A stretch of 32,000 bases of DNA from an uncultured archaeon (GTDB lineage Archaea > Asgardarchaeota > Thorarchaeia > Thorarchaeales > Thorarchaeaceae), in NCBI GenBank assembly GCA_964648855.1, contig CAZYLT010000020.1:1-32000 (forward strand), in the 5' to 3' direction. Numbering within the stretch: the stretch's first letter is position 1; every line of letters begins with the position of its first letter. The position numbers were made by a program, and so were the translations under genes. Below the pieces are notes generated by a model. The model did not search any database, was not told the DNA's origin, and was given only the letters and a program-made list of their open reading frames with translations. Below are positions 1,044-17,212 of the stretch, one piece after another.

Positions 1044-2498
1044 ATGACCGAATTTGAATCAGCTCGGAATACGAGAACGATTCTTCTTGCAGTTGTTGTA
1101 ATCGTTGTTGTCGTTGCTGGTGGAGTTATTGGCTTCCTGTTCTTGGGAGGTCAAGGGCCAACTGACACAACAAATGACACCGAACCTAGCGGTGAGCAAA
1201 TTACTGTTCTTACCAGACATGATGTTGCCATACACAATGTCTTCGAACCCATATTCTTGGAGAGTGAGTTTGCGCAGGAGAATGGAATAACTAATATTCT
1301 ATGGAAGACACCAGCTGCTGAGTTTTGGGACGAGCTTATTGATAGAGGGGAGGTTGATGTTGCTTGGGGTGGAGGACCAACAATATTTGACCAGCTCATG
1401 AGAGATGGTCGACTTGCTACTCTTGATAGCGAACTGATGCAAGAAGTAGCGGACCGTGTACCGGACCAGATTGCTGGCGCAAACATGAAGCGCAATGATA
1501 CTGAAGATAATCTCAAATGGATGGCTGCAGCAATCTCAACATTTGGGTTCACTGTCAATAATCAATTCATGGATGAATACGAATTGCCAATCCCTAAAAA
1601 ATGGACTGACCTAGAAAATGCAACCTACGGTAGCCTGCTTCCAACAATCCCGACTATTGCTATGGGTAATGCACCTGATACGACTTCAAACACTAGAATC
1701 TACGAAATCATCACACAAGGTCTTGGGTGGGATTCTGGTTGGCAAACCATGGCACGAATGGCTGGAAGTGCCAACATCTATGGGGGTTCTGTAGAAACAC
1801 AAGCCGCTTCGGAAAATGGTGATGTAGGAATATCCATGTCAATCGACTTCTATGGCTATCTAACGCAGTATAGAAACCCTGACTGTGAATATATTATTCC
1901 AGAAGGTCAGACGATTGTGAATGGAGATCCTATTGCAATTACTAATAATGCCCCTAACCAGGAATATGCTGAAGGCTTCCTTGACTTTGTCATGTCTTGT
2001 GAAGGTCAAGCTCTTTGGTTGGACCCATCTATCAGACGGATGCCTGTTCTTGAATGTGCTTTCTGGGAGCCAGGTGCTGAGGATGCCCAGGATTTGTATG
2101 CAGTATTTAATCAGACTGTGGATACAGAAGGCATTGACTTCAATGACACTCTATCTTTGCAGATCAATGCGGCATTTACTAAGTATTTCGAGTCCGTCTT
2201 CACAAATGCTCACACCGAGCTTGTGGACACTTGGAGTCTCTTGGTTTCCTCCTATTTGGATGGAGACCTCACAGAGGGCGATTTTGAAACCTATGCCAAC
2301 ATGATGGGCACTCCAGTGACAATTGTGGATCCTGACACTAGTGAAGAGGAGAAGTTCACAACAGAGTATGCCATAGAAATCAATGAGAAGATGATCTATG
2401 ACGCTGATTTCGCCTCTACGGTACAGTCATTATGGACCGCGGCTGCAAAGGCAGCATACCAAGATGTCTACAACCAAGTTTCAGCAATGCTGATGTAA
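1044..2498 (+). CDS. ABC transporter substrate-binding protein, Fe3+/thiamine (AfuA/FbpA-like) class, N-terminally membrane-anchored
   Basis: N-terminal TM helix and Thr-rich linker; DVAWGGG, PKKWTDL, TSNTRIYEII and VNGDPIAI motifs; GAGG SD; first gene of an SBP-permease-ATPase operon. Confidence 0.85.
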   Translation: MTEFESARNTRTILLAVVVIVVVVAGGVIGFLFLGGQGPTDTTNDTEPSGEQITVLTRHDVAIHNVFEPIFLESEFAQENGITNILWKTPAAEFWDELIDRGEVDVAWGGGPTIFDQLMRDGRLATLDSELMQEVADRVPDQIAGANMKRNDTEDNLKWMAAAISTFGFTVNNQFMDEYELPIPKKWTDLENATYGSLLPTIPTIAMGNAPDTTSNTRIYEIITQGLGWDSGWQTMARMAGSANIYGGSVETQAASENGDVGISMSIDFYGYLTQYRNPDCEYIIPEGQTIVNGDPIAITNNAPNQEYAEGFLDFVMSCEGQALWLDPSIRRMPVLECAFWEPGAEDAQDLYAVFNQTVDTEGIDFNDTLSLQINAAFTKYFESVFTNAHTELVDTWSLLVSSYLDGDLTEGDFETYANMMGTPVTIVDPDTSEEEKFTTEYAIEINEKMIYDADFASTVQSLWTAAAKAAYQDVYNQVSAMLM

Positions 2499-2514
2499 TG
2501 GGAGAATTAAGGAA

Positions 2515-4599
2515 TTGCCAGAAGAGAAGCTAGAGGAAGCAGCGGATATTATCCAAGAAGAAGCCGAGTTGGTGCCCGATAAGCCCGTTGATAATATAGT
2601 CAACGCGCTTCGAGGCATCCCTAGAAGAATTGGCTCGCGTCTTGCGAGTCCATTCTATTTTCTAGGAGGGTGGCTTAAGAGACGGGCGTCGGGAGCAAGA
2701 AACTTTCTCTCAGACCCAACCACAAATACAAGAAACCGCATTCAGAAAACCAGTGCTTCCGTGAGAGAGGGCATAGCCAAGCTGAGACATGAGATGGACT
2801 CATTATCGTGGGTTCAGTTGATTGCTGTCTTAGCTGCGTTTGGTTTATTTCTTATTGCCCCTCTTCTTAGTGTTGTTGGATTCTCATTCACTGACCCTCA
2901 AACTGGCCTTCCTTCTCTACACCACTTCATCAATTTGTTTAGTGACAGCAATTTTTGGCCCTGGCAGTATAATCCTGATACTGGTGAATGGCTCTCCTAC
3001 GTCAATCTCGAAACAATACAATTTGGTGGAGACCTCATGGTCATCCGTGGGTGGGATCTTGGTGCAGTACTCAATTCAATCTATGTAGCAATATTCACGA
3101 CCGCCTTTTCGGTGCTCCTAGGGGTCTTCTTAGCATTCATTATTGCAAGATATGACTTCCCAGGAAAGAGTATTGTTAGAACAGTCTTGATATTTCCAAT
3201 CTTGGCGACGCCTTTTGTGGGGGCTATAGGTATCAAGACCTTTATGGGCCGAGCTGGCTTTTTCAATAATCTATTCTACACAGCATTGAATTGGTTACCG
3301 TATAGAATCGAATTGCGTGGCCTAGCAGCAATTATCTTCGTCCAATCTCTCTCTTTGTTCTCTCTAGTTTATTTGAACGCTTACTCTTCCTTCATGTCAA
3401 TCGACCCCTCTCTTGAAGAGCAAGCAGAAAACTTGGGAGCAACAGGATTCAAGTTGTTTAGGTCGGTGACTCTTCCTTTGGCGATGCCTGGTATTCAGGC
3501 GGGAGCTATTCTAACCTTCATTCTCAGTATAGAGGATCTTGGTTCTCCGATAGTCTTCTTCCAACATCAACAAGCTCAGAAGACACTGGCATTTCAGGTC
3601 TTTAATAGCATTGCAACACAATCCGGACAAATTGATCCTGCCGGTCCCGCCATAGGAATAATTTTGCTCATCTTTGCAGTTATCGGATTTCTGACAATAA
3701 GGAAATATGCCGCTCTCCGGTCATATGAATCTGGCACGAAGGGTGGACAGTGGAACCCAAGAACAAGAAAGTTGAGGAAACGAACGTCAGTACTACTCTA
3801 CTTGGTTCTGATTCCCTTGCTATTTCTTGCCCTAATTCCGCAAATCAGTGTCATTATCCTTTCCTTTGCGGGTTCATGGGCAACAAATTCAGTTCTGCCG
3901 GACACCTGGACTTTGAGCAACTACGATGTGCTGTGGGCTTATCCTGATGTGACAACATCTATTACTAACACACTATCATACGGTCTCTTAGCCACTGTAT
4001 TCATTGTATTGTTGGGAACAAGCGCCGCATATATTATTGCAAGAAGAAATATTCCTGGGAAGACTGCACTTGATCTTCTGGTAACCTCTCCAATAGCCTT
4101 ACCCGGAATTGTGATTGCCACAGGCTATTTCACCCTATTCTACGGCACCCCACTATTTCCGTCTGAGGGGCCATGGCTATTGATTACAATATCTTACGCA
4201 ATACGAAAATTCCCATTTACGGTTAGGGCGGCGTATGCTGGCCTATTATCTACGCCAGTGATTTTGGAAGAAGCATCTATGAACATGGGTGCTGATAGGA
4301 ACAAGACCTTTGCCCGAATCACCCTGCCGTTGATTGGAGTGAGCGTGTTGGCGGGTGCATTGTTATCCTTCACCTATTCAGTGAGTGAGGTCAGTACAAG
4401 TCTCATTCTCGGAAGCGTTGGAAGAGAACAGGCGCCAATGACGTTCTGGACGAAGGAGGTTCTGGAAGGAACGGGAGTCTATGGCGGTGCGTTCAGCGCC
4501 GCGACATTAGGAGTCTTGATGATGGTGTTGCAGATGGCCGTCATAACTATCACAAACAGAATACTGGGATCTAGGTCATCAGCTATCACGGGTATCTGA
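2515..4599 (+). CDS. ABC transporter permease with two fused TM modules (FbpB/ThiP-like)
   Basis: Many TM helices; two EAA loops (LEEQAENLGA, LEEASMNMGA); TTG start; ~95-aa soluble N-terminal extension. Confidence 0.9.
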   Translation: MPEEKLEEAADIIQEEAELVPDKPVDNIVNALRGIPRRIGSRLASPFYFLGGWLKRRASGARNFLSDPTTNTRNRIQKTSASVREGIAKLRHEMDSLSWVQLIAVLAAFGLFLIAPLLSVVGFSFTDPQTGLPSLHHFINLFSDSNFWPWQYNPDTGEWLSYVNLETIQFGGDLMVIRGWDLGAVLNSIYVAIFTTAFSVLLGVFLAFIIARYDFPGKSIVRTVLIFPILATPFVGAIGIKTFMGRAGFFNNLFYTALNWLPYRIELRGLAAIIFVQSLSLFSLVYLNAYSSFMSIDPSLEEQAENLGATGFKLFRSVTLPLAMPGIQAGAILTFILSIEDLGSPIVFFQHQQAQKTLAFQVFNSIATQSGQIDPAGPAIGIILLIFAVIGFLTIRKYAALRSYESGTKGGQWNPRTRKLRKRTSVLLYLVLIPLLFLALIPQISVIILSFAGSWATNSVLPDTWTLSNYDVLWAYPDVTTSITNTLSYGLLATVFIVLLGTSAAYIIARRNIPGKTALDLLVTSPIALPGIVIATGYFTLFYGTPLFPSEGPWLLITISYAIRKFPFTVRAAYAGLLSTPVILEEASMNMGADRNKTFARITLPLIGVSVLAGALLSFTYSVSEVSTSLILGSVGREQAPMTFWTKEVLEGTGVYGGAFSAATLGVLMMVLQMAVITITNRILGSRSSAITGI

Positions 4600-4608
4600 G
4601 GTGAAAAC

Positions 4609-5769
4609 ATGGTAGAAATCGAACTTCAAAATCTACGGAAAACATTTGGCGAAGTGGTCGCGACTGATGAAGTAACTATGACACTAAAGGAAGGCGAGCT
4701 ATCAACATTACTCGGCCCATCCGGCTGTGGAAAGACTACACTTTTGCGTCTGATAGCAGGGTTCTATCGTCCTGATCATGGAAAAGTCTACTTTGATGAT
4801 AAAGACATGACTAGAGTTCCGCCACATAAGAGAAATACAGGTATGGTCTTCCAGAATTATGCTCTTTGGCCCCATATGAATGTCTATGACAATATTGCAT
4901 ATGGCCTAAAGATAAAGCGTGTAGATGGCATGAAATACAACAAAGCTGCAATCAACAAGAGGGTTGAAGCGGCTATTGATTTGGTTCACTTGGAGGGTTT
5001 GGGGGAGCGTCATGTACATCAGTTGTCGGGCGGACAACAGCAGAGAGTTTCACTAGCGCGTGCTCTTGTGATTGAGCCAGACGTTCTCCTCCTGGACGAA
5101 CCTCTGTCTAATCTTGATGCAAAACTCCGAACTGAGATGCGTGAGGAAATTATTCGGATTCAAAAGGAGCTATCAATCACAACCGTCTATGTGACTCATG
5201 ACCAACACGAAGCTCTCAGTATATCTGACCGAGTGGCTGTTATGGAGCATGGATATGTACAGCAATTCGGTACTCCTAGGGAGATATACCAACACCCTCA
5301 GACCATCTTTGTAGCAGACTTCATTGGTCAATGTACATTCATTGAAGGTAGCATCAATAGTCTAGGGAAATACATCCAAGTGCAGATACCAGATGGTCAG
5401 GTAATCGCTGGCAAGACGACTATTGAAGAATATCCATTTGAAGAGGGCGAACCTGTGAAGTGTGCCATTAGACCAGAAGATCTACATTTGGAGCGAACTG
5501 ATCCACGAGATAATGAGATTGTGGGAACTGTCAATCGGACCATATACATCGGAAATGCGTTGGAGGTCTATTTCTCAATCGGGGACATCTCAGCTCAATC
5601 GCTTCTCGACCCTGACCTTGAATTTGAATCAGGCGAAGAAATCCATCTCTTTGCTCCCCGACCTGAAGTCATGATACTTCCTCTTGGCGGAGTAGAAGCG
5701 CTCAGAAAGGTTCCTGGTCATCCTCTTGCCGAGGCAGCTGCACTAACTACTGCGGCATCGAGTGCCTAA
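4609..5769 (+). CDS. ABC transporter ATP-binding protein (FbpC/PotA-like) with C-terminal TOBE region
   Basis: Walker A GPSGCGKT, signature LSGGQQQR, Walker B LLLDEP, H-loop VTHDQ; GAGGTG SD. Confidence 0.95.
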   Translation: MVEIELQNLRKTFGEVVATDEVTMTLKEGELSTLLGPSGCGKTTLLRLIAGFYRPDHGKVYFDDKDMTRVPPHKRNTGMVFQNYALWPHMNVYDNIAYGLKIKRVDGMKYNKAAINKRVEAAIDLVHLEGLGERHVHQLSGGQQQRVSLARALVIEPDVLLLDEPLSNLDAKLRTEMREEIIRIQKELSITTVYVTHDQHEALSISDRVAVMEHGYVQQFGTPREIYQHPQTIFVADFIGQCTFIEGSINSLGKYIQVQIPDGQVIAGKTTIEEYPFEEGEPVKCAIRPEDLHLERTDPRDNEIVGTVNRTIYIGNALEVYFSIGDISAQSLLDPDLEFESGEEIHLFAPRPEVMILPLGGVEALRKVPGHPLAEAAALTTAASSA

Positions 5770-7783: not shown

Positions 7784-7888
7784 CAACTACTAGATTCCTG
7801 CATAGGTGTGCCAAGAAGCTTCCGTTATGGCTACATTACATTCGCACATATTAAACTCTATAAGGTCAGTAAACTGGATAAGACCGTG

Positions 7889-9184
7889 ATGCAGCAGCTT
7901 CGTACTCTGCTGGTGCAGCGAAGAAGACATAACGAACCAAACCTATTATCGGAGTTTGAGTCGCTCGCTGCTACAGCCAACTACAATGTCATCGGTACCT
8001 TTGATATAGTTGGTCGACCGAAAGGTAGGTTTGGCATTTCGACTGGCAAAGTTGAGGAAATCAAGACCTGGATCGAGCTCAATCGCCCAGATATTGTGCT
8101 GTTCTCTCCTAGATTGAAGTCTAGCCAGTTATTTCGACTAATGGAGGAATGGGAGCTTGAGGTCAGAGACAGAACACAGCTCATTCTTGAGATATTCGCA
8201 AAACATGCAAGATCTCCTCAAGCAAAGCTCCAGATAGAAAAGGCTCGATTGAATTACGAATTGCCATTTCAGCGTCACCAGTTACGTATTAGACTACAGG
8301 CTGAGCATACCGGTGATAGGCCTACAGCTCACCAAGTAGGCATTGGAGAGGATCTGTTAACTAAGAAATTAACGGAGCTTCGCAAGAGAATTTCTCTTAT
8401 AAACGATAAGTTGGACAAGATTTCAAATGTCCAAGCCCTAAAGAAAAAGAAGCGGCAAGCAGAGGGATTCACCGAAATTGCGTTAGCTGGCTATACAAAT
8501 GCTGGCAAGAGCACCCTGCACAGAACTCTGACTGGTTCTCAGGTGGAAGTTGCTGACCAGCTCTTTACAACCCTCTCTACCAAAACCGCTGAAATTTCCA
8601 TGAGAGGTAGAGAGGCAGTACTGTCCGATTCAGTTGGTTTCATTAGCAATCTTCCCCAGTCGTTATTGGAGGCTTTCAATACCACTTTAATGGAGATAGG
8701 TGATGCCGATCTCATCTTACTCGTTATAGATGGCTCCGATCATCCGACTGAGATGCGTAGAAAAATTCAAACCTGTCTAACCACCTTTGGTGAAATTGGT
8801 GCCAATGGTATTCCAATCATAGGAGTCCTCAACAAGATTGATATTTTAGCACGCTACAATGTTCGTGGGCAACTAGACATAATTGAAGATATGATTGGAT
8901 CTGCAGTTCCTGTTTCAGCAAAGACTGGAGAAAATATTGGTGAATTGACCCAGATCATAGAAGACGCGCTACCTTCTCTGCAACGGTATCGCCTCACCCT
9001 GCCATATGGCAGCGAATCAATGTCCATTGTTTCATGGTTATTCGACTCGGGTTTCGTTGCTGAACGTGAATTTAATGAACACTCAATCAGAGTGGAGGCT
9101 GACCTGACCAAAGAAAAGGCGCAGAAACTCATGAATAGACTCGATGACCAATCAATACGTGAAATTGCTGACGACGACCAATGA
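7889..9184 (+). CDS. hflX: GTPase HflX
   Basis: DRTQLILEIF, AKLQIE, G1 GYTNAGKST, LFTTL, DSVGFI, NKID, SAKTG. Start placed at GTG/ATG 7886/7889 rather than 7808. Confidence 0.92.
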   Translation: MQQLRTLLVQRRRHNEPNLLSEFESLAATANYNVIGTFDIVGRPKGRFGISTGKVEEIKTWIELNRPDIVLFSPRLKSSQLFRLMEEWELEVRDRTQLILEIFAKHARSPQAKLQIEKARLNYELPFQRHQLRIRLQAEHTGDRPTAHQVGIGEDLLTKKLTELRKRISLINDKLDKISNVQALKKKKRQAEGFTEIALAGYTNAGKSTLHRTLTGSQVEVADQLFTTLSTKTAEISMRGREAVLSDSVGFISNLPQSLLEAFNTTLMEIGDADLILLVIDGSDHPTEMRRKIQTCLTTFGEIGANGIPIIGVLNKIDILARYNVRGQLDIIEDMIGSAVPVSAKTGENIGELTQIIEDALPSLQRYRLTLPYGSESMSIVSWLFDSGFVAEREFNEHSIRVEADLTKEKAQKLMNRLDDQSIREIADDDQ

Positions 9185-9248: not shown

Positions 9249-9905
9249 ATGATAGTTATGGAGCTGAAGCCGCCTGAAGATATACTGGACATGCTAGAGG
9301 GATACACCAAGATTGTGCTTTTTGGTGACTCGGGGTGCGCACAGCTTTGTGATGTGGGTGGCATACTACAACTGGAAGACATGACTGATTTTCTGACGGA
9401 GAATGGAAAAGAGGTATTGGGGTATATCTTTGTTGAGGGGGGAATTTGTGACGTTAATGCTGTCCGTCAAGAGATGGAAGAACATTCGGAGATGATTGAA
9501 GAGGCTGATGCATTCCTCGTTCAGGCATGTGGCGTCGCGACTCAGATAACTACTGAACTAGAGCCTGAAAAGGAATCATTTCCTGCTGTAAACTCCACGT
9601 TTCTCGGAAAGATGCCAGAACGGTTTCAACACGAAGAAACCTGTGCTATGTGTGGCGACTGTATCCTTCATTTGACAGGAGGAATTTGCCCCGTCGCGCG
9701 ATGCTCAAAGGGGATTCTCAATGGTCCCTGCGGCGGATCCATGGATGGTAAATGTGAGCGTGATGATGAGACTGATTGCGTCTGGCAACTAATATACGAC
9801 CGACTCAAGAAACTGGGAAAGCTTGAGAATCTGAAGACAATCTGGGAAATACGGGATTGGAGTTTGTCACAGGGGCCTCGCTCTTTGACTCATGAGGAAG
9901 TCTAG
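9249..9905 (+). CDS. metV: MetV-like Fe-S/Zn subunit of methylene-tetrahydrofolate reductase (MTHFR C-terminal-like domain)
   Basis: Cys pattern CAMCGDC...GICPVARCSKGILNGPCGG...GKCE...DCVW; directly upstream of metF. Confidence 0.85.
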   Translation: MIVMELKPPEDILDMLEGYTKIVLFGDSGCAQLCDVGGILQLEDMTDFLTENGKEVLGYIFVEGGICDVNAVRQEMEEHSEMIEEADAFLVQACGVATQITTELEPEKESFPAVNSTFLGKMPERFQHEETCAMCGDCILHLTGGICPVARCSKGILNGPCGGSMDGKCERDDETDCVWQLIYDRLKKLGKLENLKTIWEIRDWSLSQGPRSLTHEEV

Positions 9906-9980
9906 CCAAAGGGAAGACTAAGGCTAACCCCTCCAAAGACATATGTATATGGTTGGATTTCCGAGGGTAACGAACATCGA

Positions 9981-10928
9981 ATGGAGTTGTCCGAGATAAC
10001 CAAGTCACAGCTTCGTGCTATTCTCAATTCAGGGGATTTTGTTGTTTCAGGGGAGATTACGCCCCCACATGGTAGTGACAAGGATTTGCTATTGGAGCGT
10101 CTGAATGTCGTCAAAGGCTATTGTGATGCAATCAATGTCACTGATAATGTTCGTGGGATTCCTACACTGAGCAGTCTTGTTGCCACGTATCTCATAAAAC
10201 AAACAGGTCAGGAACCAGTGATGCAGATGTCGGCGAGAGACCGCAATCGAATTCTGTTTGAAAGCGAATTATACGGGGCTCATGCTTTGGGAATTCCGAA
10301 TGTGTTGTTCGTCACAGGAGATCACTCTCTCCTTGGCTCCCATCCCCAAACAAAAACAGTCTATGATATCGACTCCATTCAAGCGTTGGCATTGGCTAAG
10401 CATCTCATGTCAGGAAAAGATTTGGCTGATGATGAGTTAGAAGGAACGCCCCAGTTTTTCCTCGGTTCAACCTTCAATCCCTACGCTGACCCTATGGAAT
10501 TGCAGGTACTACGAACCCACAAGAAGCATGACGCGGGTGCGGAGTTTTTCCAGACGCAGGCGATATTTGATCCCAGTCGTTTCCGTGATTTCATGAAACA
10601 ACTTGGAGAGATCGAAGCAAAGATACTAGCTGGGATTATTCCTCTCAAAGGACCTAGGATGGCACGATTCATGAACCGTCGTATTCCTGGTATCAAGATT
10701 CCTGAAAGCATGATTGAACGTCTAGAAGTTGCTGGAAAGGACCTGAAAGGGCGAGAGAGAATCAAGGCTGTTAGGGGCGAGGGTCTCTCCATTGCGCTCG
10801 AAACTATCGAAGCTATTAAGAAGACTAAGGACGTGGATGGAATCCATATCATGGGTATTGGCTGGGAAGAGAGTATTCCAGAGCTGGTCAAGCGGTCCGG
10901 GCTCTATCCGCGGCCGAAAGGAGATTAA
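9981..10928 (+). CDS. metF: Methylenetetrahydrofolate reductase
   Basis: GEITPP, INVTDN, RDRNRI, VTGDH, GAEFFQTQ, GIHIM motifs. Confidence 0.9.
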   Translation: MELSEITKSQLRAILNSGDFVVSGEITPPHGSDKDLLLERLNVVKGYCDAINVTDNVRGIPTLSSLVATYLIKQTGQEPVMQMSARDRNRILFESELYGAHALGIPNVLFVTGDHSLLGSHPQTKTVYDIDSIQALALAKHLMSGKDLADDELEGTPQFFLGSTFNPYADPMELQVLRTHKKHDAGAEFFQTQAIFDPSRFRDFMKQLGEIEAKILAGIIPLKGPRMARFMNRRIPGIKIPESMIERLEVAGKDLKGRERIKAVRGEGLSIALETIEAIKKTKDVDGIHIMGIGWEESIPELVKRSGLYPRPKGD

Positions 10929-10932
10929 CACG

Positions 10933-11850
10933 ATGTTTGTATTCAAGAAAGAACAGAAGACCTTTGACTTCGGAGGAGTGACAATTGGCGGTAATCCTGG
11001 AGAGTTTCCCACAGTGATGATTGGAGGCTTGTTCTTTAAGTCTCAAGAGGTGGTTGAAGACGTCAAGAAGGGTCTGTTCAAGAAGGACTTGGCCAAGGAA
11101 TGGGTAGATCTTGGAATCCATATGAGTGAGGAAACGGGTCATCCACTCATCATTCAAGTGTACGGAAGAACGCCAGAAGCAATGGAACGTCATATTTCTT
11201 GGCTTACAGAAAACTTCGACGGCCCCTTCATGTTTGAATCCACAATTTCTGCGGCACGATTGAGGGGAATAGAATATTGTAGCGAAGCAGGACTAGAGGA
11301 CCGAGCGATATACAATAGTTTGAATCTTTCAACTAAAGATGCCGAAAAGAGCCTTTTGCAAGAAAAATCGATAGACAAGGCTGTTGTTCTGGGATGGTCT
11401 CCGCGAGCAACCAGTTTGAATGACAGAATGGAAACCGTCACAAACATGATTGATGATGCAAAGAAATTGGGAATCACGAAGATGTTGGTTGACCCTGCTA
11501 CTATGCCTGTTGGAGCAGGGTATGGGCTGGACTACCGCACCATTCTCACAATCAAATCTGAATTGGGATTACCAACATGTCTAGGGCCTCATAATGCCCC
11601 TTCGGCTTGGAAGTTTCTAAGACGGCCTGAACTTAATACAAAAAGCACCCATCTAGCAGCAATAGTGGCATCCACTGCCGTGGCTCAGATTCTTGCTACT
11701 GATAGTGTCATGTACGGTTCGATGAAACGAACTAAAGAGGTGTTTGCTGCAACATCATTGATTGCGAATGCAATCGCCTCAGCTGCAGCTGAAGCAAACA
11801 GAAGTCTGGGAAGAGAAGAAGAATTGTTTGAACCCCCCACATTTGAGTAG
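10933..11850 (+). CDS. mtrH: MtrH-family methyl-pterin:corrinoid methyltransferase (copy 1, divergent)
   Basis: MFVFKKEQ...IGGNPGEFPTVMIG N-terminus, IYNS, GPHNAPSAW. True start is ATG 10933, after an AAGGAG SD. Confidence 0.85.
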   Translation: MFVFKKEQKTFDFGGVTIGGNPGEFPTVMIGGLFFKSQEVVEDVKKGLFKKDLAKEWVDLGIHMSEETGHPLIIQVYGRTPEAMERHISWLTENFDGPFMFESTISAARLRGIEYCSEAGLEDRAIYNSLNLSTKDAEKSLLQEKSIDKAVVLGWSPRATSLNDRMETVTNMIDDAKKLGITKMLVDPATMPVGAGYGLDYRTILTIKSELGLPTCLGPHNAPSAWKFLRRPELNTKSTHLAAIVASTAVAQILATDSVMYGSMKRTKEVFAATSLIANAIASAAAEANRSLGREEELFEPPTFE

Positions 11851-11860
11851 GTGCTGCACA

Positions 11861-12556
11861 ATGAGCAATAATGGCAAATCCCAATCATGGCCTCCCGTAC
11901 CCGGTGACTTTGAAGTAGGAAACCCAGAGAAAAGCGTGGCAGTCTGCACACTTGGAAAGAAAATCAAAGTGGACGCAGACTACTGCATAATTGGAACCTG
12001 TAAAACGGAGAATATCGGTATTGAGCGTGTTATAGTTAATGTCATTTCAAATCCAAATATCCGTTCGTTGATACTATGTGGTCCGGAGGTACCTGGACAT
12101 CATACAGGCTCCTCTCTCCGAAGCCTATACCATGATGGGATTGATGAATCGAATAGGAAGATTCTGGGGGCAAAGGGCGCTATTCCCTATATAGAAAACA
12201 TTCCCCTTGAAGCTGTGGAGCGATTCAGGAAACAAATCTCTCTAGTAGATATGATGGATGAATCTGACCCAGGGGAGATTGCTTCTGCAGTGGTTGAAGC
12301 ACAAGGAGGAGACCCCGGCTCGTATGGAGATGGGCCCATGTGGGTTGATTTTGGAATACGCGACAAATCAGAGACTATTACTATATTGTCAGGAGCAGTA
12401 TCATTGATACCCGAATACAATTTTTCATTCGATCCTGCAACGGGGCTAGTAGAAGAGCGCTCAACCCATGCCAAAATAGCACTTCACCCGAGTAGCATTA
12501 TTGTTGACATGAGAAATGATGAGAACGGGACTATTCTTGTAGGAAAGGAGATGTGA
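11861..12556 (+). CDS. mtrA: Soluble MtrA/MtxA-like corrinoid protein with a C-terminal MtrB-like peptide and no TM anchor
   Basis: WPPVPGDF, VAVCTLG, CKTENIGIERVIVNVISNPNIR, EVPGHHTG (cobamide His ligand), GAIPYIEN, DPG..PM. Start at ATG 11861. Confidence 0.88.
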   Translation: MSNNGKSQSWPPVPGDFEVGNPEKSVAVCTLGKKIKVDADYCIIGTCKTENIGIERVIVNVISNPNIRSLILCGPEVPGHHTGSSLRSLYHDGIDESNRKILGAKGAIPYIENIPLEAVERFRKQISLVDMMDESDPGEIASAVVEAQGGDPGSYGDGPMWVDFGIRDKSETITILSGAVSLIPEYNFSFDPATGLVEERSTHAKIALHPSSIIVDMRNDENGTILVGKEM

Positions 12557-12560
12557 GAAC

Positions 12561-13496
12561 ATGTTTGTCTTCGAGAAAGAGCAGTATATCTATAATGTTG
12601 GCAAGATTCGAATTGGTGGAACAAGAGGAGAGAACCCCACTGTCCTTGCAGGAACGATTTTCTATAGCGGGCACAAAATAGTGGAGGACCCCGAGAAAGG
12701 CATTTTTGACCAGAATGAGGCTGAAAGACTAGTCAACATACAAGATGAGATTTCGGATGAAACCGGCATCCCGTCAATAGTGCACATTTTTTCCGAGTCA
12801 GAGAAAGCTATTAGAAAATACATAGATTTCATTGTGGGTATCACAGACGCTCCAATCATTATTGATTCGACAAATGCTTCTGTACGGATAGCAGGACTTG
12901 AGCATGCTCAAGAAGTAGGAATTCAGGACCGTTGCATCTACAACAGCATCAATATTTCAATCACGGATGAGGAATTGCAGAAGCTCAAAGACCTACAGCA
13001 TGATTGTGCAATAATTCTTGCGTTCAATCCACAGGACTCTACGGTGTCAGGAAAACGAGCTGTCCTAGAACGCGGCATTGGTGAACTCGAGCAAGGATTG
13101 CTTAACCTGTCTCAAGAAATCGGGGTGACAAAACCGCTGATAGATACCGCAATCACAGCCATGGGTGCAGGTGCCGGGTCTGCGGCAGCTTTCACGTTCG
13201 TTTCAAAAATCCTCTATGGCCATCCAGTGGGGTCTGGAATTCATAATGGACCCTCATCATGGCCATGGCTCAAGCAATACAGAAAGAAAAGTCGTACAGC
13301 ATACGCGTCATGTGATGTTGCCTCCAGCCTCATTGTTCAGGTTCTGGGTGCTGACTATATTCTTTATGGCCCAATTAGCAGTGCTCCTCAAGTCTTCCCC
13401 ATCGTTGCAATGGGAGAGGTCATTGCTGCAGAAGCGGCAAAACAGGAGTTCGGACTTGAGCCAGTCGCTGGTCATCCTTTCACAAAGCTGTTGTAG
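12561..13496 (+). CDS. mtrH: MtrH-family methyltransferase (copy 2)
   Basis: MFVFEKEQ...IGGTRGENPTVLAGTIFY, IIIDST, IYNSIN, PLIDTA, GSGIHNGPSSW, GADYILYGPI. Confidence 0.9.
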   Translation: MFVFEKEQYIYNVGKIRIGGTRGENPTVLAGTIFYSGHKIVEDPEKGIFDQNEAERLVNIQDEISDETGIPSIVHIFSESEKAIRKYIDFIVGITDAPIIIDSTNASVRIAGLEHAQEVGIQDRCIYNSINISITDEELQKLKDLQHDCAIILAFNPQDSTVSGKRAVLERGIGELEQGLLNLSQEIGVTKPLIDTAITAMGAGAGSAAAFTFVSKILYGHPVGSGIHNGPSSWPWLKQYRKKSRTAYASCDVASSLIVQVLGADYILYGPISSAPQVFPIVAMGEVIAAEAAKQEFGLEPVAGHPFTKLL

Positions 13497-14921
13497 GTGG
13501 GGCTTTTGGCGGCATCCAATTACTATCGAGTCCGGCCGAGGACTCTTGGGATCAGTTCTCTCAGAATGGGTGCATACTTCACCGTGGCTTCGGTAGAGCT
13601 TGGAAATACCACAACAAAATGCATTATTTGCTCCACTAATCTCAAGACAGCTGAAATTTTTGAGATTGCGAAAGAAGTCAGGATGACACGGACAGTAAGG
13701 TCACCAAAGGATGGTGAGAAGGTATTCGGCAAAACTCTCACTGGGGTGTCTCTTACAAGGGAATCTGTCTCTGAACTCATTAAGACAATCCTGCTATCTG
13801 CTATCTCAAAAGCTGGATTAAGAATGGAACGCGACCTACATTTTGTGGTTCGCTCTACAGGTGTTACTGCTGGGTTTGCGGAGCCTCATGAAGTTGATGC
13901 AATGGTAAAAGCTTTGGCTGATGGCTGCATCAAGGCTGGCGTCTCTCCCAATAGAATGACTGCTGCACTCTCCGCTGAGAATCTGCCGCCTGGACTACAG
14001 GAGTATACTTGGTTAAAAAGAGTATATTTCGATGGTGCTGTTGCGAGCTGCCTTCCCCCTCCCACAACCACCCTTGTTGCCAATGAGATGGAGGGCGAAT
14101 TAGTAACAGCAGGAATGAAAGGTGCCGCAAAGAGCACAAAGGCTGATTTCCGAAATCCGGTAATGACTCTGGACTTTGGAACTACTTTGGCTGGTCGAAT
14201 CACTGATAACAAATTCCCTTACTGCAACACTATTGGTTCCTTTGTTGGTCTGGCAGGCGCCATACCCGATGCCATTGCTAGGGGGTCTGGTTTAGTCAAC
14301 CGAAATGAAGGAACGGCGTTAGAGCTGTCCTCGAACAATGAGAAGGATACTGTGGATGAAGGAGTGATAGACCGAATCCACGAAGTAATCACCGTTGAAA
14401 CTCTGACCGGTGACCATTCTAGATATGGATCAGTGCCAGTCAATTTGAAAGCTGGAAGGGAATCCGGTGTGGTGATGATTGGTGTCGATGTCGGGTCGAA
14501 CGGTTCAAAGATATCAGAGCTTGAAGCAATGGGCAAACAGATAACCGAAGAATACGGTCCTGCGTATTTGAAACCCATAATAGACCATGTTCAGGTTCGC
14601 CTAATTCAACGGATTCTTAGTATCGCTGATAAACAAGGCCTGCTCTTCCCACACACAGCTCTTGGGGTTACTGGTCGAGCAATTACTACTGAGAAGAAGC
14701 CGCAGATTCTCTCGAATGGCCTAAAACTAAATGATGGGTCTCTATGGACGGAAGAACATATTCTCTTGGTTGTTGATGATGGCCTCGCTCTAGGCGCAGC
14801 TGTTGCTGCGAGATGCATGAACTCAATGGGTACAAGACACAACCCAATGGGCGGTAGACAAGGTGACAGATGCGTCATGCCAGAACGAGAAGAAATGCAA
14901 CGTAGCAAATCTGATACGTAA
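13497..14921 (+). CDS. Methanogenesis marker 14-like protein (predicted ASKHA/actin-like ATPase fold)
   Basis: VASVELGNTTTKCI, LHFVVRSTGVTAGF, VANEMEGELVTAG, DFRNP..LDFGTTLAGR, DDGLALGAA..ARCMNS.G..NP.GG. Confidence 0.8.
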   Translation: MGLLAASNYYRVRPRTLGISSLRMGAYFTVASVELGNTTTKCIICSTNLKTAEIFEIAKEVRMTRTVRSPKDGEKVFGKTLTGVSLTRESVSELIKTILLSAISKAGLRMERDLHFVVRSTGVTAGFAEPHEVDAMVKALADGCIKAGVSPNRMTAALSAENLPPGLQEYTWLKRVYFDGAVASCLPPPTTTLVANEMEGELVTAGMKGAAKSTKADFRNPVMTLDFGTTLAGRITDNKFPYCNTIGSFVGLAGAIPDAIARGSGLVNRNEGTALELSSNNEKDTVDEGVIDRIHEVITVETLTGDHSRYGSVPVNLKAGRESGVVMIGVDVGSNGSKISELEAMGKQITEEYGPAYLKPIIDHVQVRLIQRILSIADKQGLLFPHTALGVTGRAITTEKKPQILSNGLKLNDGSLWTEEHILLVVDDGLALGAAVAARCMNSMGTRHNPMGGRQGDRCVMPEREEMQRSKSDT

Positions 14922-14967: not shown

Positions 14968-15762
14968 ATGATTGTTCAGCCAATTAAGACTCGAACCATA
15001 AATGAAGATGATAACTTTCTTGACGTTCTCTTTGAGGGATTGAAAAAAGCCGGTTTTTCTTTCCAAAACGGGGATATTCTTGGTATAGCTGAAACTCCGT
15101 TGGGAACAACGGAAGGTCGTGTTGTTAGGCTGTCTGACGTTACTCCAACGGCACACGCTCTTGATCTGGCATCAAAGCATGATTTGATACCCGAGGTTGC
15201 TGAGCTAGTCCTGCAGGAGGCTGATGAGATACTGGGTGGAATTCCCCATGTTCTCCTGACTATCAAAAATAACACCCTCATGGCAAATGCTGGCGTCGAC
15301 AAATCTAATGTGCCCCCAGGCTATGCATCACTTCTGCCAGTTGACTCAAAGAGTAGTGCTAATTGCGTCCGTGAAGAGGTCTACAAAAGAACAGGAAAGC
15401 AAATCGGGGTGATCATAATCGATAGCAGGACACAACCATTACGATTGGGCAATATTGGAATGGCACTTGCAGTATCGGGGTTTAATCCGGTTGCAGATGA
15501 GCGAGGTAAGAAGGACCTATTTGGAAACGAAATGAGAATCACAAGGCGCGCAGTGGCCGATAATCTAGCATCTGCCTGTACAGCCGTCATGGGTGAGTCT
15601 AGCGAATCAATTCCTGCAGCTATAATCAGAGGAGCTCTAGTCGAGCTCTCAGAGGAATCGTATGACTCTTCAGTTATGTGGATTAGCCCTCAGGAATGTA
15701 TGTACATGGCAATCTTCGAGCAATGGCGCAGAGATTGCGGGGAAAACCAGAGTATCGAATGA
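14968..15762 (+). CDS. cofE: Coenzyme F420-0:L-glutamate ligase family protein
   Basis: ANAGVDKSN, IIDS...PLRLG, DLFG, AVADNLASA..VMGE motifs. Confidence 0.85.
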   Translation: MIVQPIKTRTINEDDNFLDVLFEGLKKAGFSFQNGDILGIAETPLGTTEGRVVRLSDVTPTAHALDLASKHDLIPEVAELVLQEADEILGGIPHVLLTIKNNTLMANAGVDKSNVPPGYASLLPVDSKSSANCVREEVYKRTGKQIGVIIIDSRTQPLRLGNIGMALAVSGFNPVADERGKKDLFGNEMRITRRAVADNLASACTAVMGESSESIPAAIIRGALVELSEESYDSSVMWISPQECMYMAIFEQWRRDCGENQSIE

Positions 15763-15880
15763 AGGGAAATCTGCTGTACTAGGCATGTCCTGGCTTCTGG
15801 AGTTCGTGCTCGAAAGAAAGAAAAGGGGAACTCATATCTCGATAGATACAGAGCATTTATGAAACGCAGGGATTGATTAT

Positions 15881-17212
15881 TTGAGCGAAAAGGTGGTTCT
15901 GATCGATGCATCGGTTGCAGGAGCATCAGGGGACATGATTCTATCTGCCCTCATAGATATCCTTCAGGACGATGAAGCCATTGTCCCAGTTGCAGCAAGT
16001 CTTCTCATATATGACCCCGCTATTCGCGTCCAAGTCTTGGACAAGAGCTTGGGTGGTCTTTCTGGAAAGCACCTTGAAATTACCAAGGACAAAAGCGTGA
16101 GATTCGACCCACCGTCGCTTCGTGAGATAATCAGTGTTCTCTCAGAAGAATTGGAGCTTTCGCCCAAGGGGAAACAGCTTGCTAGTGAAGCTCTTGAACA
16201 AATCTTCAGAGCCGAATCCAGAGCTCATGATACTCCAATTGATGAATTACATCTTCACGAAACCGGCTCAATTGACACAATCCTTGACATTGCTGGTACA
16301 ATGTATCTTCTGGAGAAAGCAAATCTACTAGAAGATGCTCGCTTTGTATGTACAAGTGTGGCAGTTGGCAGCGGTACCATCGAAACTGAACACGGCGAAC
16401 TCGAAGTACCGGTTCCGGCAGTTGCTGAAATCATTGTAGAATATGAGATGCCCTTTCACAAGGGTGATGCAAAAACCGAAACACTGACTCCTACAGGCGC
16501 TGCAATTTTAGCGACACTCGCTGAAGAATATGTGGAATCAAGAGATGCCTTCGAAGAAGCACAAAAGGGCAATGGATTCGGTAGCCGTGACCTAGGTGAT
16601 GTTCCTAACGTTCTATCGATTTCGATAGGAAAACTGGAGAAAACAAAACCAGTACCCAAGCCTGAGGAAACGGCAAAGAGAAAGAAACCTCAGCCCGAAT
16701 CAAAACCAACTAAGACAGAGGAGATGCCCATGGAATCAGGAAAATGGAATCAGGATGAAGTGATTGTTATTGAGGCGAATGTCGACGATGTTGACGGCGA
16801 AGTCCTTGGTAACATGATCGACACCCTTACATCAGATGGCATGGCACTAGATGTTGTTATAATTCCTGCCTACGGAAAGAAAAACAGACCATGCTATGTT
16901 GTCAAGGTGATCTCTTCAATAAATGGACTAAATGCTATTGCGGAGCTACTGATTAAGAACTTGGGCACATTGGGCATAAGGTATACTACGTGGTCTAGGT
17001 TGAAGGCACAACGTGAAACAATTGTGACTCGGCTTGAGGTTGATGGTGAGCAATATATGGTCAGGGTTAAACTCTCTCGAGGTCCGGATGGTAGCATTGT
17101 CAACATTAAGCCCGAGCTTGATGACATTACCACTGTATCAAAAGCAACGGGAATTCCAATTCGAGAGTTAAAACCAAGAGTAATCCTTCAGGCTCATGCA
17201 GTCACTGAATGA
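15881..17212 (+). CDS. larC: LarC-family nickel insertion protein (single ORF)
   Basis: AGASGDMILSAL, HLHETG..D.I.D, HG..PVPAV, TPTGAAI, EANVDD, GKKNRP, TLGIR, KPELDD. Confidence 0.88.
   Translation: MSEKVVLIDASVAGASGDMILSALIDILQDDEAIVPVAASLLIYDPAIRVQVLDKSLGGLSGKHLEITKDKSVRFDPPSLREIISVLSEELELSPKGKQLASEALEQIFRAESRAHDTPIDELHLHETGSIDTILDIAGTMYLLEKANLLEDARFVCTSVAVGSGTIETEHGELEVPVPAVAEIIVEYEMPFHKGDAKTETLTPTGAAILATLAEEYVESRDAFEEAQKGNGFGSRDLGDVPNVLSISIGKLEKTKPVPKPEETAKRKKPQPESKPTKTEEMPMESGKWNQDEVIVIEANVDDVDGEVLGNMIDTLTSDGMALDVVIIPAYGKKNRPCYVVKVISSINGLNAIAELLIKNLGTLGIRYTTWSRLKAQRETIVTRLEVDGEQYMVRVKLSRGPDGSIVNIKPELDDITTVSKATGIPIRELKPRVILQAHAVTE

What the first reader, a model, noticed from the sequence alone, without database searches (positions are those of the whole stretch)
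9249..14921. Soluble MtrH-MtrA-MtrH module joined to MetVF: candidate methyl shuttle between folate and methanopterin pools
Seen: metV, metF, mtrH1, mtrA, mtrH2 and marker 14 are co-oriented, with gaps of 0-10 nt from metF onward. No mtrCDE, mtrF or mtrG is present, MtrA has no TM helix, and the two MtrH copies are strongly diverged. Known: MetVF makes methyl-H4folate in acetogens; MtrH moves methyl from a methyl-pterin to the MtrA cobamide; MtrE/CDE do the CoM transfer and Na+ pumping. Inference: two MtrH paralogues with different pterin specificity on one corrinoid protein could exchange methyl between CH3-H4F and CH3-H4MPT, linking bacterial- and archaeal-type Wood-Ljungdahl branches without ion pumping. 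Alternatively they form a heterodimer with one structural copy.
Basis: partly seen in the sequence, partly recalled or inferred. Interest (0 to 1): 0.8.

Follow-up and report, generated by a model that had tools for sequence, protein, structure and literature searches.

The report
Soluble MetF-linked MtrH-MtrA-MtrH methyltransferase
This Asgard (Thorarchaeota) archaeon keeps a membrane-free piece of the methanogens' methyl-transfer machine (a vitamin-B12 protein flanked by two unlike copies of its methyl-loading enzyme, next to a methyl-folate-making gene); the cluster is real and found in nearly all relatives searched, but a folate-to-methanopterin shuttle is neither shown nor favoured in this genome.

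Summary
metV, metF, mtrH1 (10933-11850), mtrA (11861-12556), mtrH2 and marker 14 form one tight co-oriented cluster. MtrA keeps its cobalt-ligand histidine and has no membrane helix. No mcrA or mtrE was found in the 94.6%-complete genome. All 22 complete related Thorarchaeota loci have the same order, and a Sifarchaeum contig carries mtrH1-mtrA-mtrH2.

Both MtrH copies lie in the methanogen MtrH/MtxH clade. MtrH2 is canonical. MtrH1 sits on a long branch, is strongly conserved, and differs at two pterin-site positions and one basic loop. The MtrA tail carries an MtrB-like motif, which in methanogens docks the MtrH dimer. Marker 14 models as an ASKHA ATPase fold.

The cluster tracks the folate branch (Fhs 40/41, MtrA 73/81). 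CODH/ACS (18/41), Mer (16/41) and Ftr (27/41) are patchy. This genome has a folate-type DHPS, but no RFAP synthase, Mer, Mtd, Ftr or CdhD was found.

Best reading: a soluble Mtr remnant with an asymmetric MtrH1/MtrH2 pair that moves methyl between MetF's methyl-pterin and the MtrA cobamide. Its final partner is unknown.

Thorarchaeal MtrAH plus marker 14 was already published (Adam 2022). First-stage notes e1-5597814 and e1-5597816 cover this same stretch.

The parts
9249..9905 (+). metV (small subunit of MetFV-type methylene-tetrahydropterin reductase)
   Evidence: Pfam DUF5981 scores 120 bits over residues 111-205. Across the class it was found in 21 of 41 genomes, and wherever I compared its coordinates with MtrA's it lay beside the cluster.
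9981..10928 (+). metF (methylene-tetrahydrofolate reductase family)
   Evidence: Pfam MTHFR scores 117 bits. The best NCBIfam match is the MTHFR half of the bifunctional YitJ-type enzyme. It lies directly upstream of mtrH1 in every related locus that reaches that far.
10933..11850 (+). mtrH1, the derived MtrH paralogue (305 aa)
   Evidence: It scores 250 bits on Pfam MtrH but 244 bits on TIGR01114, below that cut-off of 271. Its clade is limited to Thorarchaeota and Sifarchaeum and sits on a long stem of 0.69. Against M. mazei MtrH it has E102 for D103, G32 for T32, a 3-residue deletion removing K242/K243, and R202 matching R211.
11861..12556 (+). mtrA, soluble corrinoid protein (231 aa)
   Evidence: Pfam MtrA scores 193 bits. 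It aligns to the solved MtrA structures 5LAA, 8Q3V and 5L8X, and the invariant G79-H80 lines up with the 'GH' of the cobalt-ligand histidine. No TM helix was found.
12398..12457 (+). MtrB-like docking motif in the MtrA tail (residues 180-199, VSLIPEYNFSFDPATGLVEE)
   Evidence: The only Pfam hit of the tail is MtrB positions 2-24 (E 0.1; 4 of 20 orthologous tails hit, best E 0.009). The only PDB hit is MtrB 8Q3V_B residues 7-26 (E 0.15-0.5). P184 and E185 are invariant in 20 orthologues. The match is short and weak, so I rate it probable, not proven.
12561..13496 (+). mtrH2, the canonical MtrH paralogue (311 aa)
   Evidence: It scores 395 bits on TIGR01114, above the cut-off, and 271 bits to M. 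mazei MtrH 9QTP. Of the seven pterin-site residues named for M. mazei, six are identical here (Q75 is His in this genus) and all seven match in the Thorarchaeal consensus. The basic patch K239/R242/K243 is kept.
13497..14921 (+). methanogenesis marker 14 (DUF2114), ASKHA-fold protein
   Evidence: Pfam scores 585 bits and TIGR03285 573 bits. The AF2 model has mean pLDDT 76. Foldseek matches are TsaD/Kae1, sugar kinases, RACo (3ZYY, ranks 34 and 38) and benzoyl-CoA reductase-type ATPases. It is conserved right after mtrH2 in all loci that reach it.
7808..9184 (+). hflX GTPase (conserved neighbour, no functional link shown)
   Evidence: Pfam identifies it, and it lies upstream in most related loci.
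14968..17212 (+). cofE (F420 gamma-glutamyl ligase) and larC-like nickel insertion gene (conserved neighbours, no functional link shown)
   Evidence: Pfam identifies both. They are conserved downstream of marker 14 in all related loci that reach that far.

Best explanation
The cluster encodes a soluble, membrane-free descendant of the methanogen Mtr complex.

The parts. MtrA binds a cobamide through His80. In place of a membrane anchor it carries a tail with the MtrB-type strand that docks the MtrH dimer in methanogens. The two MtrH paralogues most likely form an asymmetric pair on that tail. MtrH2 is the canonical methyl-pterin:cob(I)amide methyltransferase. MtrH1 is a derived, strongly conserved partner with a re-shaped pocket. 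Marker 14, an ASKHA-fold ATPase, most likely keeps or returns the cobamide to its active state.

The reaction. MetF (with MetV here) supplies or removes the methyl-pterin, in this genome most likely methyl-tetrahydrofolate. The core reaction is therefore a reversible methyl exchange between MetF's methyl-pterin and protein-bound cobamide, without ion pumping.

The role. The cluster is near-universal in Thorarchaeia, while CODH/ACS, Mer, Mtd and Ftr are patchy. Its role is therefore a general methyl supply or uptake node rather than part of acetyl-CoA synthesis. A biosynthetic outlet such as methionine is my leading guess for the final acceptor.

Shown: gene identities, order, conservation, residue patterns and distribution. 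Inferred: heteromer formation, tail docking, marker 14 as activase, the pterin used, and the final acceptor.
For: Identities and tight spacing.

MtrA. It aligns to the solved structures with the GH histidine invariant and has no TM helix. The sole Pfam hit and the sole PDB hit of its tail are both the N-terminus of MtrB. In M. mazei, MtrB residues 1-23 dock the MtrH homodimer at its dimer interface, and only the proximal protomer is thought to serve MtrA (PMC12774963).

Complementary MtrB-contact residues. MtrH1 keeps the Arg211 equivalent (R202, invariant), which faces the invariant tail Glu185; MtrH2 has Ala there. MtrH2 keeps an acid at position 5, where MtrH1 has an invariant Lys.

Conservation. 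Both paralogues are conserved in every complete related locus, at 57-93% and 55-84% identity to the window's copies. Mean column identity is 79% for MtrH1 and 76% for MtrH2. The duplication predates the Thor/Sif split. MtrH1 is an isolated clade: bit scores drop from 461 to 184 across 1.84 billion representatives.

Marker 14 models as an ASKHA fold. Adam et al. 2022 tie it (their m26) to Mtr by distribution and synteny.

Distribution across the class: MtrA 73/81, Fhs 40/41, Mch 39/41, against CdhD 18/41, Mer 16/41, Mtd 22/41 and Ftr 27/41.

Own genome. Fhs and FolD are adjacent, and a DHPS equivalog lies next to GcvT. No RFAP synthase was found. No MetE-type or MetH-type homocysteine methyltransferase was found in 25 of 25 genomes, which leaves MetF's product without its usual consumer. 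Price et al. 2021 predicted MtrA as the methyl donor for methionine synthesis in methanogens.
Against: No direct evidence of a heteromer: the single complex-prediction job gave no verdict, so it counts neither way.

The MtrB-like match is short (about 20 residues) with E-values of 0.009-0.5.

MtrH1 keeps the catalytic Asn and Asp residues, so it may be a second active site rather than a docking subunit.

No homocysteine-binding enzyme was identified. MesC-type core methionine synthases could not be tested, because PF01717 does not detect them in the M. acetivorans control.

Marker 14 has no recognisable Fe-S domain, and its best fold matches are TsaD/Kae1 and sugar kinases rather than RACo.

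MtrH2 keeps the basic patch proposed to bind the H4MPT tail, and Mch is near-universal. Both argue that a methanopterin-like carrier may still be in use.
Confidence: 0.45

Rival explanations
1. MtrH1 and MtrH2 are both active but prefer different pterins. MtrA swings between them, so methyl moves directly between methyl-H4F (from MetF) and methyl-H4MPT. This would join a bacterial-type and an archaeal-type C1 branch.
For: Both copies keep N129, D196 and H229/N230. They differ at pocket residues T32 and D103 and at the basic loop proposed to hold the H4MPT tail. That loop is present in MtrH2 and in methanogens, and absent from MtrH1 and from the folate enzyme MtgA.

A corrinoid protein between two methyltransferases is the usual layout for a net methyl transfer.

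Many Thorarchaeia carry MetF together with Mer over cut-off (16/41). This suggests two separate methylene/methyl pools. Several genomes have CdhD, Ftr, Mch and Mtd but no Mer (for example G001, G012, G018, G025). In those, a shuttle could feed CODH/ACS.
Against: In this genome nothing found makes or uses methyl-H4MPT. At least 10 sampled genomes keep the cluster without Mer or CdhD.

RFAP synthase passed the cut-off in only 1 of 41 genomes, while the controls ring in four archaea. This genome's DHPS is the folate equivalog, not the methanopterin-type DHPS-like protein.

MtrH1 is not MtgA-like in the tree or in PDB scores. Its E102 and G32 are unique to it rather than folate-type.
Confidence: 0.2
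2. Methylotrophic entry point. The module works in reverse as the pterin-side methyltransferase. It takes methyl groups from methylated substrates into H4F, for oxidation through MetF, FolD and Fhs to formate with ATP gain. In this it resembles MtgA, the O-demethylase MT II enzymes and MtoA.
For: The genome has a bacterial-type module on contig 14: a URO-D family methyltransferase, a B12-binding corrinoid protein and a RACo activase. That module lacks its own pterin methyltransferase. The only MtrH-family genes in the genome are the two in this window. Fhs, FolD and MetF form a complete oxidative folate route. The literature proposes that non-methanogen MtrAH funnels methyl groups into the Wood-Ljungdahl pathway.
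Against: The URO-D/corrinoid/RACo module looks patchy, seen in about 11 of 24 genomes by score class alone, whereas the MtrH-MtrA-MtrH cluster is near-universal. That module has its own corrinoid protein and activase, so it does not explain why MtrA and marker 14 are kept. No substrate-specific MT1 sits in or next to the cluster.
Confidence: 0.2
3. The two MtrH copies are functionally redundant homodimers, or the cluster is a decaying methanogenesis remnant with no specific present role.
For: Adam et al. 2022 describe the Thorarchaeal MtrAH and m26 as remnants of ancestral methanogenesis. H4MPT-branch genes are being lost piecemeal across the class.
Against: All five genes are intact, tightly spaced and conserved in order in every complete locus. 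Both paralogues have 76-79% mean column identity and many invariant residues. MtrH1 diverged early and has been held constant since, which is the reverse of decay.
Confidence: 0.07

Closest known systems
Thorarchaeia 'canonical MtrAH' plus marker m26 (Adam et al. 2022, Sci Adv, PMC9635834)
   Same: This is the same system. That paper reports that Thorarchaeia have canonical MtrA and MtrH without the other Mtr subunits. It also reports that m26 (DUF2114, marker 14) is tied to Mtr by distribution, phylogeny and synteny, including in Thorarchaeia.
   Different: In the text and supplement I could search, several points are not described: two diverged MtrH paralogues flanking mtrA, the fixed linkage to metF, the MtrB-like tail of MtrA, the ASKHA fold of marker 14, and the way the cluster's distribution is uncoupled from CODH/ACS and Mer. 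I could not see their MtrH tree figure.
Methanogen Mtr complex MtrA-H (M. mazei 9QTP/9QTS, PMC12774963; M. marburgensis 8Q3V, PMC10998594)
   Same: MtrA has the histidine-ligated cobamide fold. MtrH is a TIM-barrel methyl-pterin:cobamide methyltransferase that works as a dimer docked on the MtrB N-terminus. Marker 14 co-occurs.
   Different: No MtrE was found, so there is no CoM methylation site and no Na+ pump. MtrA has no membrane anchor. The MtrB-like strand is fused to MtrA. The MtrH dimer is replaced by two unlike paralogues. The genes sit beside metF, and no MCR was found in the genome.
MtxXAH of Methanosarcinales (Harms and Thauer 1997; PMC12978539)
   Same: It is a soluble MtrA paralogue without an anchor, followed directly by an MtrH paralogue. 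I saw this in Methanosarcina locus L118. Its function is still unknown.
   Different: Mtx has a single MtxH and an upstream mtxX. It has no metF, no second MtrH and no adjacent marker 14. In my tree the Thorarchaeal copies are not nested in the MtxH clade; the relationships form an unresolved polytomy.
Three-component corrinoid methyltransferase systems (MtgABC, bacterial O-demethylases, MtoABCD; MtgA structure 6SJ8/6SK4)
   Same: The logic is the same: methyltransferase, corrinoid protein, methyltransferase, plus an ATP-dependent activase. The pterin-side enzyme belongs to the MtrH family.
   Different: Here the corrinoid protein is MtrA, not the B12-binding (PF02310) type. Both methyltransferases are pterin-type. 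The putative activase is DUF2114, not RACo/RamA. No substrate-specific MT1 is in the cluster.
MetH and the predicted MesA-MtrA route to methionine (Price et al. 2021, PMC7857596)
   Same: A pterin-binding barrel, a cobamide carrier and a reactivation function sit next to MetF's product. MtrA has been predicted to donate methyl groups for methionine synthesis in methanogens.
   Different: No homocysteine-binding domain (PF02574) and no MetE/MesA-type domain (PF01717) was found in 25 Thorarchaeia genomes. The acceptor step is therefore missing or unrecognised.
MtrA-like, MtrH and MtrAH fusion proteins of Atabeyarchaeia and Freyarchaeia (PMC11291895)
   Same: These are Asgard archaea without MCR that carry soluble MtrA/MtrH homologues of unknown role.
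   Different: Those are described as divergent or fused forms. The Thorarchaeal set consists of separate genes, one of them a canonical MtrH, arranged as H1-A-H2 with metF and marker 14.

Membership tests
Mtr complex (N5-methyl-H4MPT:CoM methyltransferase, Na+-pumping) | MtrA corrinoid subunit with a histidine cobalt ligand | tested here: met
   Pfam scores 193 bits. The alignment to 5LAA and 8Q3V places the invariant G79-H80 on the 'GH' motif.
Mtr complex (N5-methyl-H4MPT:CoM methyltransferase, Na+-pumping) | MtrA C-terminal membrane anchor | tested here: not met
   The best Kyte-Doolittle 19-residue window scores 1.08, against 2.58 in ANME-1 MtrA. MtrA also falls below the TIGR01111 equivalog cut-off (193 < 249).
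Mtr complex (N5-methyl-H4MPT:CoM methyltransferase, Na+-pumping) | MtrH methyl-pterin methyltransferase with the conserved pterin-site residues | tested here: met
   MtrH2 scores 395 bits, above the TIGR01114 cut-off, and has D, N, D and H/N in place. MtrH1 scores 244 bits, below the cut-off, with the changes D103E and T32G.
Mtr complex (N5-methyl-H4MPT:CoM methyltransferase, Na+-pumping) | Membrane subunits MtrCDE (CoM methylation, Na+ site) | tested here: not met
   PF04206 (MtrE) has no match in the 94.6%-complete genome, while the controls ring in two methanogens. MtrC and MtrD were not searched separately.
Mtr complex (N5-methyl-H4MPT:CoM methyltransferase, Na+-pumping) | Stalk subunit MtrB that docks the MtrH dimer | tested here: inconclusive
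   There is no separate mtrB in the cluster. A 20-residue MtrB-like motif lies in the MtrA tail, with weak E-values of 0.009-0.5, and MtrB is the only hit in both Pfam and PDB.
Mtr complex (N5-methyl-H4MPT:CoM methyltransferase, Na+-pumping) | Coupling to methyl-CoM reductase | tested here: not met
   PF02249 (MCR_alpha) has no match in the genome.
MtxXAH (soluble Mtr paralogues of Methanosarcinales) | Anchor-less MtxA followed by one MtxH, with mtxX upstream | tested here: not met
   The anchor-less A subunit is shared. Here, however, there are two H genes and metF lies upstream instead of mtxX. The tree does not place either Thorarchaeal copy inside the MtxH clade. I did not search the rest of the genome for MtxX.
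Three-component corrinoid methyltransferase systems with RACo/RamA activase | B12-binding (PF02310/PF02607) corrinoid protein, substrate-specific MT1 and an Fe-S ASKHA activase | tested here: not met
   The corrinoid protein is MtrA. No MT1 family gene is in the cluster. Marker 14 has an ASKHA fold but no Fer2 or RACo domains. A true module of this kind lies elsewhere, on contig 14.
MetFV-type methylene-tetrahydrofolate reductase | MetF (PF02219) with the adjacent small subunit MetV (PF12225) | tested here: met
   Both are present in the window. MetV is missing from about half of the relatives, mostly those with CODH/ACS. The pterin and the electron donor cannot be tested with these tools.
Cobalamin-dependent methionine synthase (MetH-like) | Zinc-dependent homocysteine-binding domain | tested here: not met
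   PF02574 and PF01717 were each found in 0 of 25 genomes, this one included. The MesC type cannot be tested with these tools.

The most novel reading that the evidence does not exclude
MtrH1-MtrA-MtrH2 is a self-contained two-site methyltransferase. The tail-anchored cobamide domain would shuttle between a canonical site (MtrH2) and a re-tuned site (MtrH1: E102, G32, loss of the basic loop). That second site would serve a different substrate. It could be a second pterin, giving a direct methyl-H4F/methyl-H4MPT bridge. It could instead be the acceptor half of the methionine-synthase activity that I could not find in Thorarchaeia. Marker 14 would then be a new class of corrinoid activase shared with all methanogens.
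Probability: 0.3. Interest if true: 0.8.

Novelty: new variant of a known kind. Interest (0 to 1): 0.55.

Why it matters
Thorarchaeia are Asgard archaea, and their carbon metabolism feeds into models of the archaeal host of eukaryotes. The cluster was found in 73 of 81 sampled genomes and in 22 of 24 high-quality ones. It is one of their most constant C1 features, more constant than CODH/ACS or the methanopterin branch. Published reconstructions treat it only as 'MtrAH, role unclear'.

Several features make it a tractable soluble model for the first half-reaction of Mtr: an asymmetric MtrH pair, an MtrB-like tether fused to MtrA, fixed wiring to MetF, and an ASKHA-fold marker 14. It could also help assign a function to marker 14, a protein conserved in methanogens whose role I could not find described.

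The survey also raises two questions. These archaea carry Ftr, Mch, Mtd, Mer and MtrH, yet RFAP synthase was not found, so which pterin do they use? And how do they remethylate homocysteine when no MetE or MetH was found?

Tried and rejected
Frame slip. My first coordinates for mtrH1 and mtrA were one base off. therefore gave spurious low identities or stop-codon errors. I corrected them to 10933 and 11861, and one search replaces.

MtrH1 homologue search. The word-indexed search listed only Thorarchaeota-type sequences and gave no outgroup. The exhaustive search and the named loci replaced it.

Complex prediction. The job with MtrH1, MtrH2 and the MtrA tail scored 0.06 against a mark of 0.32. 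The verdict was 'no answer', so I count it neither for nor against binding.

Sequencing-run search.

MtrH1 as an MtgA-like folate enzyme. Rejected by the tree and by PDB scores, where 9QTP scores 186 bits and MtgA 145.

MetF as a simple replacement for Mer, as proposed for ANME-1. This does not hold as a general rule here, because 16 of 41 genomes have a Mer over cut-off as well as the metF cluster.

The universal URO-D family protein (contig 19) as the missing homocysteine methyltransferase. Rejected: it has no His-x-Cys zinc motif, it sits next to a membrane protein and PolX, and it scores far below the MtaA/MtbA cut-offs.

A zinc site in MtrH1 built from H70, E102, C216 and H220. Considered and dropped: by homology, H70 and C216 lie away from the barrel mouth. 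I could not measure distances.

Marker 14 as a specific RACo relative. Foldseek supports only the general ASKHA fold. RACo appears at rank 34, and TM-scores are 0.3-0.55.

Literature. Searches for a marker 14 function and for RFAP synthase in Asgard archaea found nothing usable.

Full report
WHAT IS THERE

Pfam and NCBIfam identify nine co-oriented genes on the plus strand:
- hflX, 7808-9184
- metV, 9249-9905 (DUF5981)
- metF, 9981-10928 (MTHFR)
- mtrH1, 10933-11850
- mtrA, 11861-12556
- mtrH2, 12561-13496
- marker 14/DUF2114, 13497-14921
- cofE, 14968-15762
- a larC-like gene, 15881-17212

From metF onward the gaps are 4, 10, 4 and 0 nt, read. My first start coordinates for mtrH1 and mtrA were one base off. 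They are corrected here, and one search replaces.

MtrA aligns over residues 7-163 to the solved MtrA structures 5LAA, 8Q3V and 5L8X. The invariant G79-H80 lies on the 'GH' of the cobalt-ligand histidine. MtrA has no hydrophobic C-terminal helix: its best 19-residue Kyte-Doolittle window scores 1.08, against 2.58 in an ANME-1 MtrA.

The window lies on contig 20 of a 3.11-Mb Thorarchaeota MAG that is 94.6% complete. In the whole genome I found only these two MtrH and this one MtrA, and no match to MCR_alpha or MtrE.

HOW WIDESPREAD IT IS

Twenty-two related loci from Thorarchaeota (some labelled Promethearchaeota or 'archaeon') share one order: (hflX)-(metV)-metF-mtrH1-mtrA-mtrH2-marker 14-cofE-larC. 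Identities to the window's proteins are 57-93% for MtrH1, 49-84% for MtrA, 55-84% for MtrH2 and 56-84% for marker 14. MtrH1 and MtrH2 are only 33-38% identical to each other.

A locus labelled Hermodarchaeota has the same cluster. A Sifarchaeum contig has mtrH1-mtrA-mtrH2.

In a class-level sample, MtrA was found in 73 of 81 genomes and in 22 of 24 high-quality ones.

In the text I could search I did not find the paralogue pair, the metF linkage or the points below.

THE TWO MtrH COPIES

MtrH2 passes the mtrH equivalog cut-off (395 bits against 271). MtrH1 does not (244 bits). Both score higher against methanogen MtrH (9QTP: 271 and 186 bits) than against the folate enzyme MtgA (6SJ8: 174 and 145 bits).

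An exhaustive HMMER search of 1.84 billion representatives shows MtrH1 as an isolated group. One full-length representative scores 461 bits, and the next best scores 184 bits at 33-36% identity.

I built a maximum-likelihood tree of 117 sequences.
- Thorarchaeal and Sifarchaeal MtrH1 form a clade with 100% support on a long stem of 0.69.
- Thorarchaeal and Sifarchaeal MtrH2 form a clade with 92% support on a short stem of 0.067.
- Both lie inside a 100%-supported clade with Methanosarcina MtrH, Methanosphaera MtrH, ANME-1 MtrH and Methanosarcinales MtxH.
- Bacterial groups (Aminicenantes, Actinomycetota) lie outside (names).

The duplication is therefore old. MtrH1 changed quickly and has been held constant since.

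I mapped residues onto M. mazei MtrH, using the site residues named in PMC12774963.
- Both copies keep N129, D196, H229 and N230.
- MtrH2 also keeps T32, D103, Q75 (His in this genus) and the basic patch at 239, 242 and 243.
- MtrH1 has an invariant Glu for D103 and Gly for T32.
- MtrH1 has a 3-residue deletion that removes K242 and K243, and an 8-residue loop deletion.
- MtgA also lacks the basic insertion, but it has Asp and Ser at the two pocket positions. MtrH1 is therefore unlike both known types.

THE MtrA TAIL

A first-stage note (e1-5597814) suggested that the tail resembles the N-terminus of MtrB, and I tested that.

The only Pfam hit of residues 150-231 is MtrB positions 2-24 (E 0.1). 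The only PDB hit is MtrB 8Q3V_B residues 7-26, with 12 of 20 residues identical. A profile of 20 orthologous tails again finds only MtrB (E 0.15), and four tails hit Pfam MtrB on their own (best E 0.009). P184 and E185 are invariant.

In M. mazei this part of MtrB is the strand on which the MtrH homodimer docks. The stated contacts are Glu9(MtrB)-Arg211(MtrH) and Arg5(MtrB)-Asp5(MtrH). MtrH1 keeps the Arg211 equivalent (R202, invariant), where MtrH2 has Ala. MtrH2 has Glu at position 5, where MtrH1 has an invariant Lys.

This complementary pattern is what an asymmetric heterodimer on one tether would show. It remains an inference. The only complex-prediction job gave no verdict.

MARKER 14

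An AF2 model (mean pLDDT 76, pTM 0.79) has an ASKHA fold. Foldseek matches TsaD/Kae1, sugar kinases, anhydro-sugar kinases, RACo (ranks 34-38) and a benzoyl-CoA reductase ATPase.

I read this as an ATP-using helper of the corrinoid protein. An activase role is plausible but not shown, and no Fe-S domain is recognisable.

C1 CONTEXT

Own genome:
- Fhs and FolD are adjacent on contig 1.
- Mch is present, but it is the most divergent in the class.
- No Mer over cut-off was found (best 189 bits against 349).
- No Mtd, Ftr or CdhD was found.
- A folate-type DHPS equivalog lies next to GcvT.

Class sample:

| Gene | Genomes with a match |
|---|---|
| Fhs | 40/41 |
| Mch | 39/41 |
| Ftr | 27/41 |
| Mtd | 22/41 |
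| MetV | 21/41 |
| CdhD | 18/41 |
| Mer (over cut-off) | 16/41 |
| RFAP synthase (over cut-off) | 1/41 |

The RFAP synthase controls ring in four archaea.

At least ten genomes have the cluster with neither Mer nor CdhD. The cluster therefore follows the folate branch, not acetyl-CoA synthesis or the methanopterin branch.

MetE-type and MetH-type homocysteine methyltransferase domains were found in none of 25 genomes. MesC could not be tested. Price et al. 2021 predicted MtrA as the methyl donor for methionine synthesis in methanogens.

A separate module of a URO-D methyltransferase, a B12-binding corrinoid protein and a RACo activase lies on contig 14. It lacks a pterin methyltransferase.

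READING

Best-supported picture: a soluble Mtr remnant in which MtrA is tethered by its MtrB-like tail to an unequal MtrH1/MtrH2 pair. It exchanges methyl between MetF's methyl-pterin and the cobamide, and marker 14 acts as an ATP-dependent helper. Confidence is 0.45.

The final partner of the methyl-cobamide is open.
- A direct folate/methanopterin shuttle is not excluded, since both sites look active and differ. It is disfavoured here because the genome shows no way to make methanopterin and no enzyme to make or use methyl-H4MPT. Confidence is 0.2.
- Methylotrophic entry is a rival at 0.2.
- A biosynthetic outlet such as methionine is my leading guess within the best explanation.

VERDICT

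The finding is real, and part of it is already published. I rate it a new variant of a known kind, with interest 0.55.

Noticed in passing
class survey of 41 Thorarchaeia genomes; window 9249-9905: MetV and CODH/ACS are nearly mutually exclusive. MetV was found in 20 of 23 genomes without CdhD, but in only 1 of 17 with CdhD. Two within-genus contrasts point the same way: G014 in genus g9 and G035 in genus g13. This suggests that MetF uses a different electron partner in Wood-Ljungdahl-positive lineages.
   Followed up: partly
whole genome G000 and class survey: Many Thorarchaeia carry methanopterin-type enzymes (Mch 39/41, Ftr 27/41, Mtd 22/41, Mer 16/41, MtrH). Yet beta-RFAP synthase (TIGR00144) passed its cut-off in only 1 of 41 genomes. 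This genome's DHPS is the folate equivalog. Which pterin these enzymes use is unexplained.
   Followed up: partly
class survey (25 genomes): No MetE/MesA-type (PF01717) or MetH/BHMT-type (PF02574) homocysteine methyltransferase was found in any genome. How homocysteine is remethylated is open.
   Followed up: partly
G000 contig 14, 16827-20255 (L051:4827-8255): A bacterial-type corrinoid module is encoded here: a B12-binding corrinoid protein, a divergently transcribed URO-D/MtaA-like methyltransferase, and a RACo activase with a 2Fe-2S domain. It has no pterin methyltransferase of its own. By score class it appears in about 11 of 24 relatives.
   Followed up: partly
G000 contig 4, 209494-210414: This genome's Mch is the most divergent of the class, at 264 bits against 328-431 in the others. 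Lineages without Ftr also tend to score lower. This may reflect relaxed or shifted function after loss of the rest of the methanopterin branch.
   Followed up: no
window 14968-17212 and loci L004-L025: cofE (F420 gamma-glutamyl ligase) and a larC-like nickel-insertion gene follow marker 14 in every related locus that reaches that far, and hflX precedes the cluster in most. I could not tell whether this is functional linkage or only conserved gene order.
   Followed up: no
G000 contigs 13, 14, 58, 6 and 1: Seven luciferase-like (Mer-family) paralogues fall below the Mer cut-off. Three of them are full-length, at 160-189 bits. One could be a divergent methylene-pterin reductase.
   Followed up: no
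L118 (Methanosarcina sp.) 2432-4933: The pattern search for MtrH relatives mainly returned mtxX-mtxA-mtxH operons from Methanosarcinales and ANME-2, not the true mtr operon. MtxA there is 197 aa and has no anchor.
   Followed up: yes
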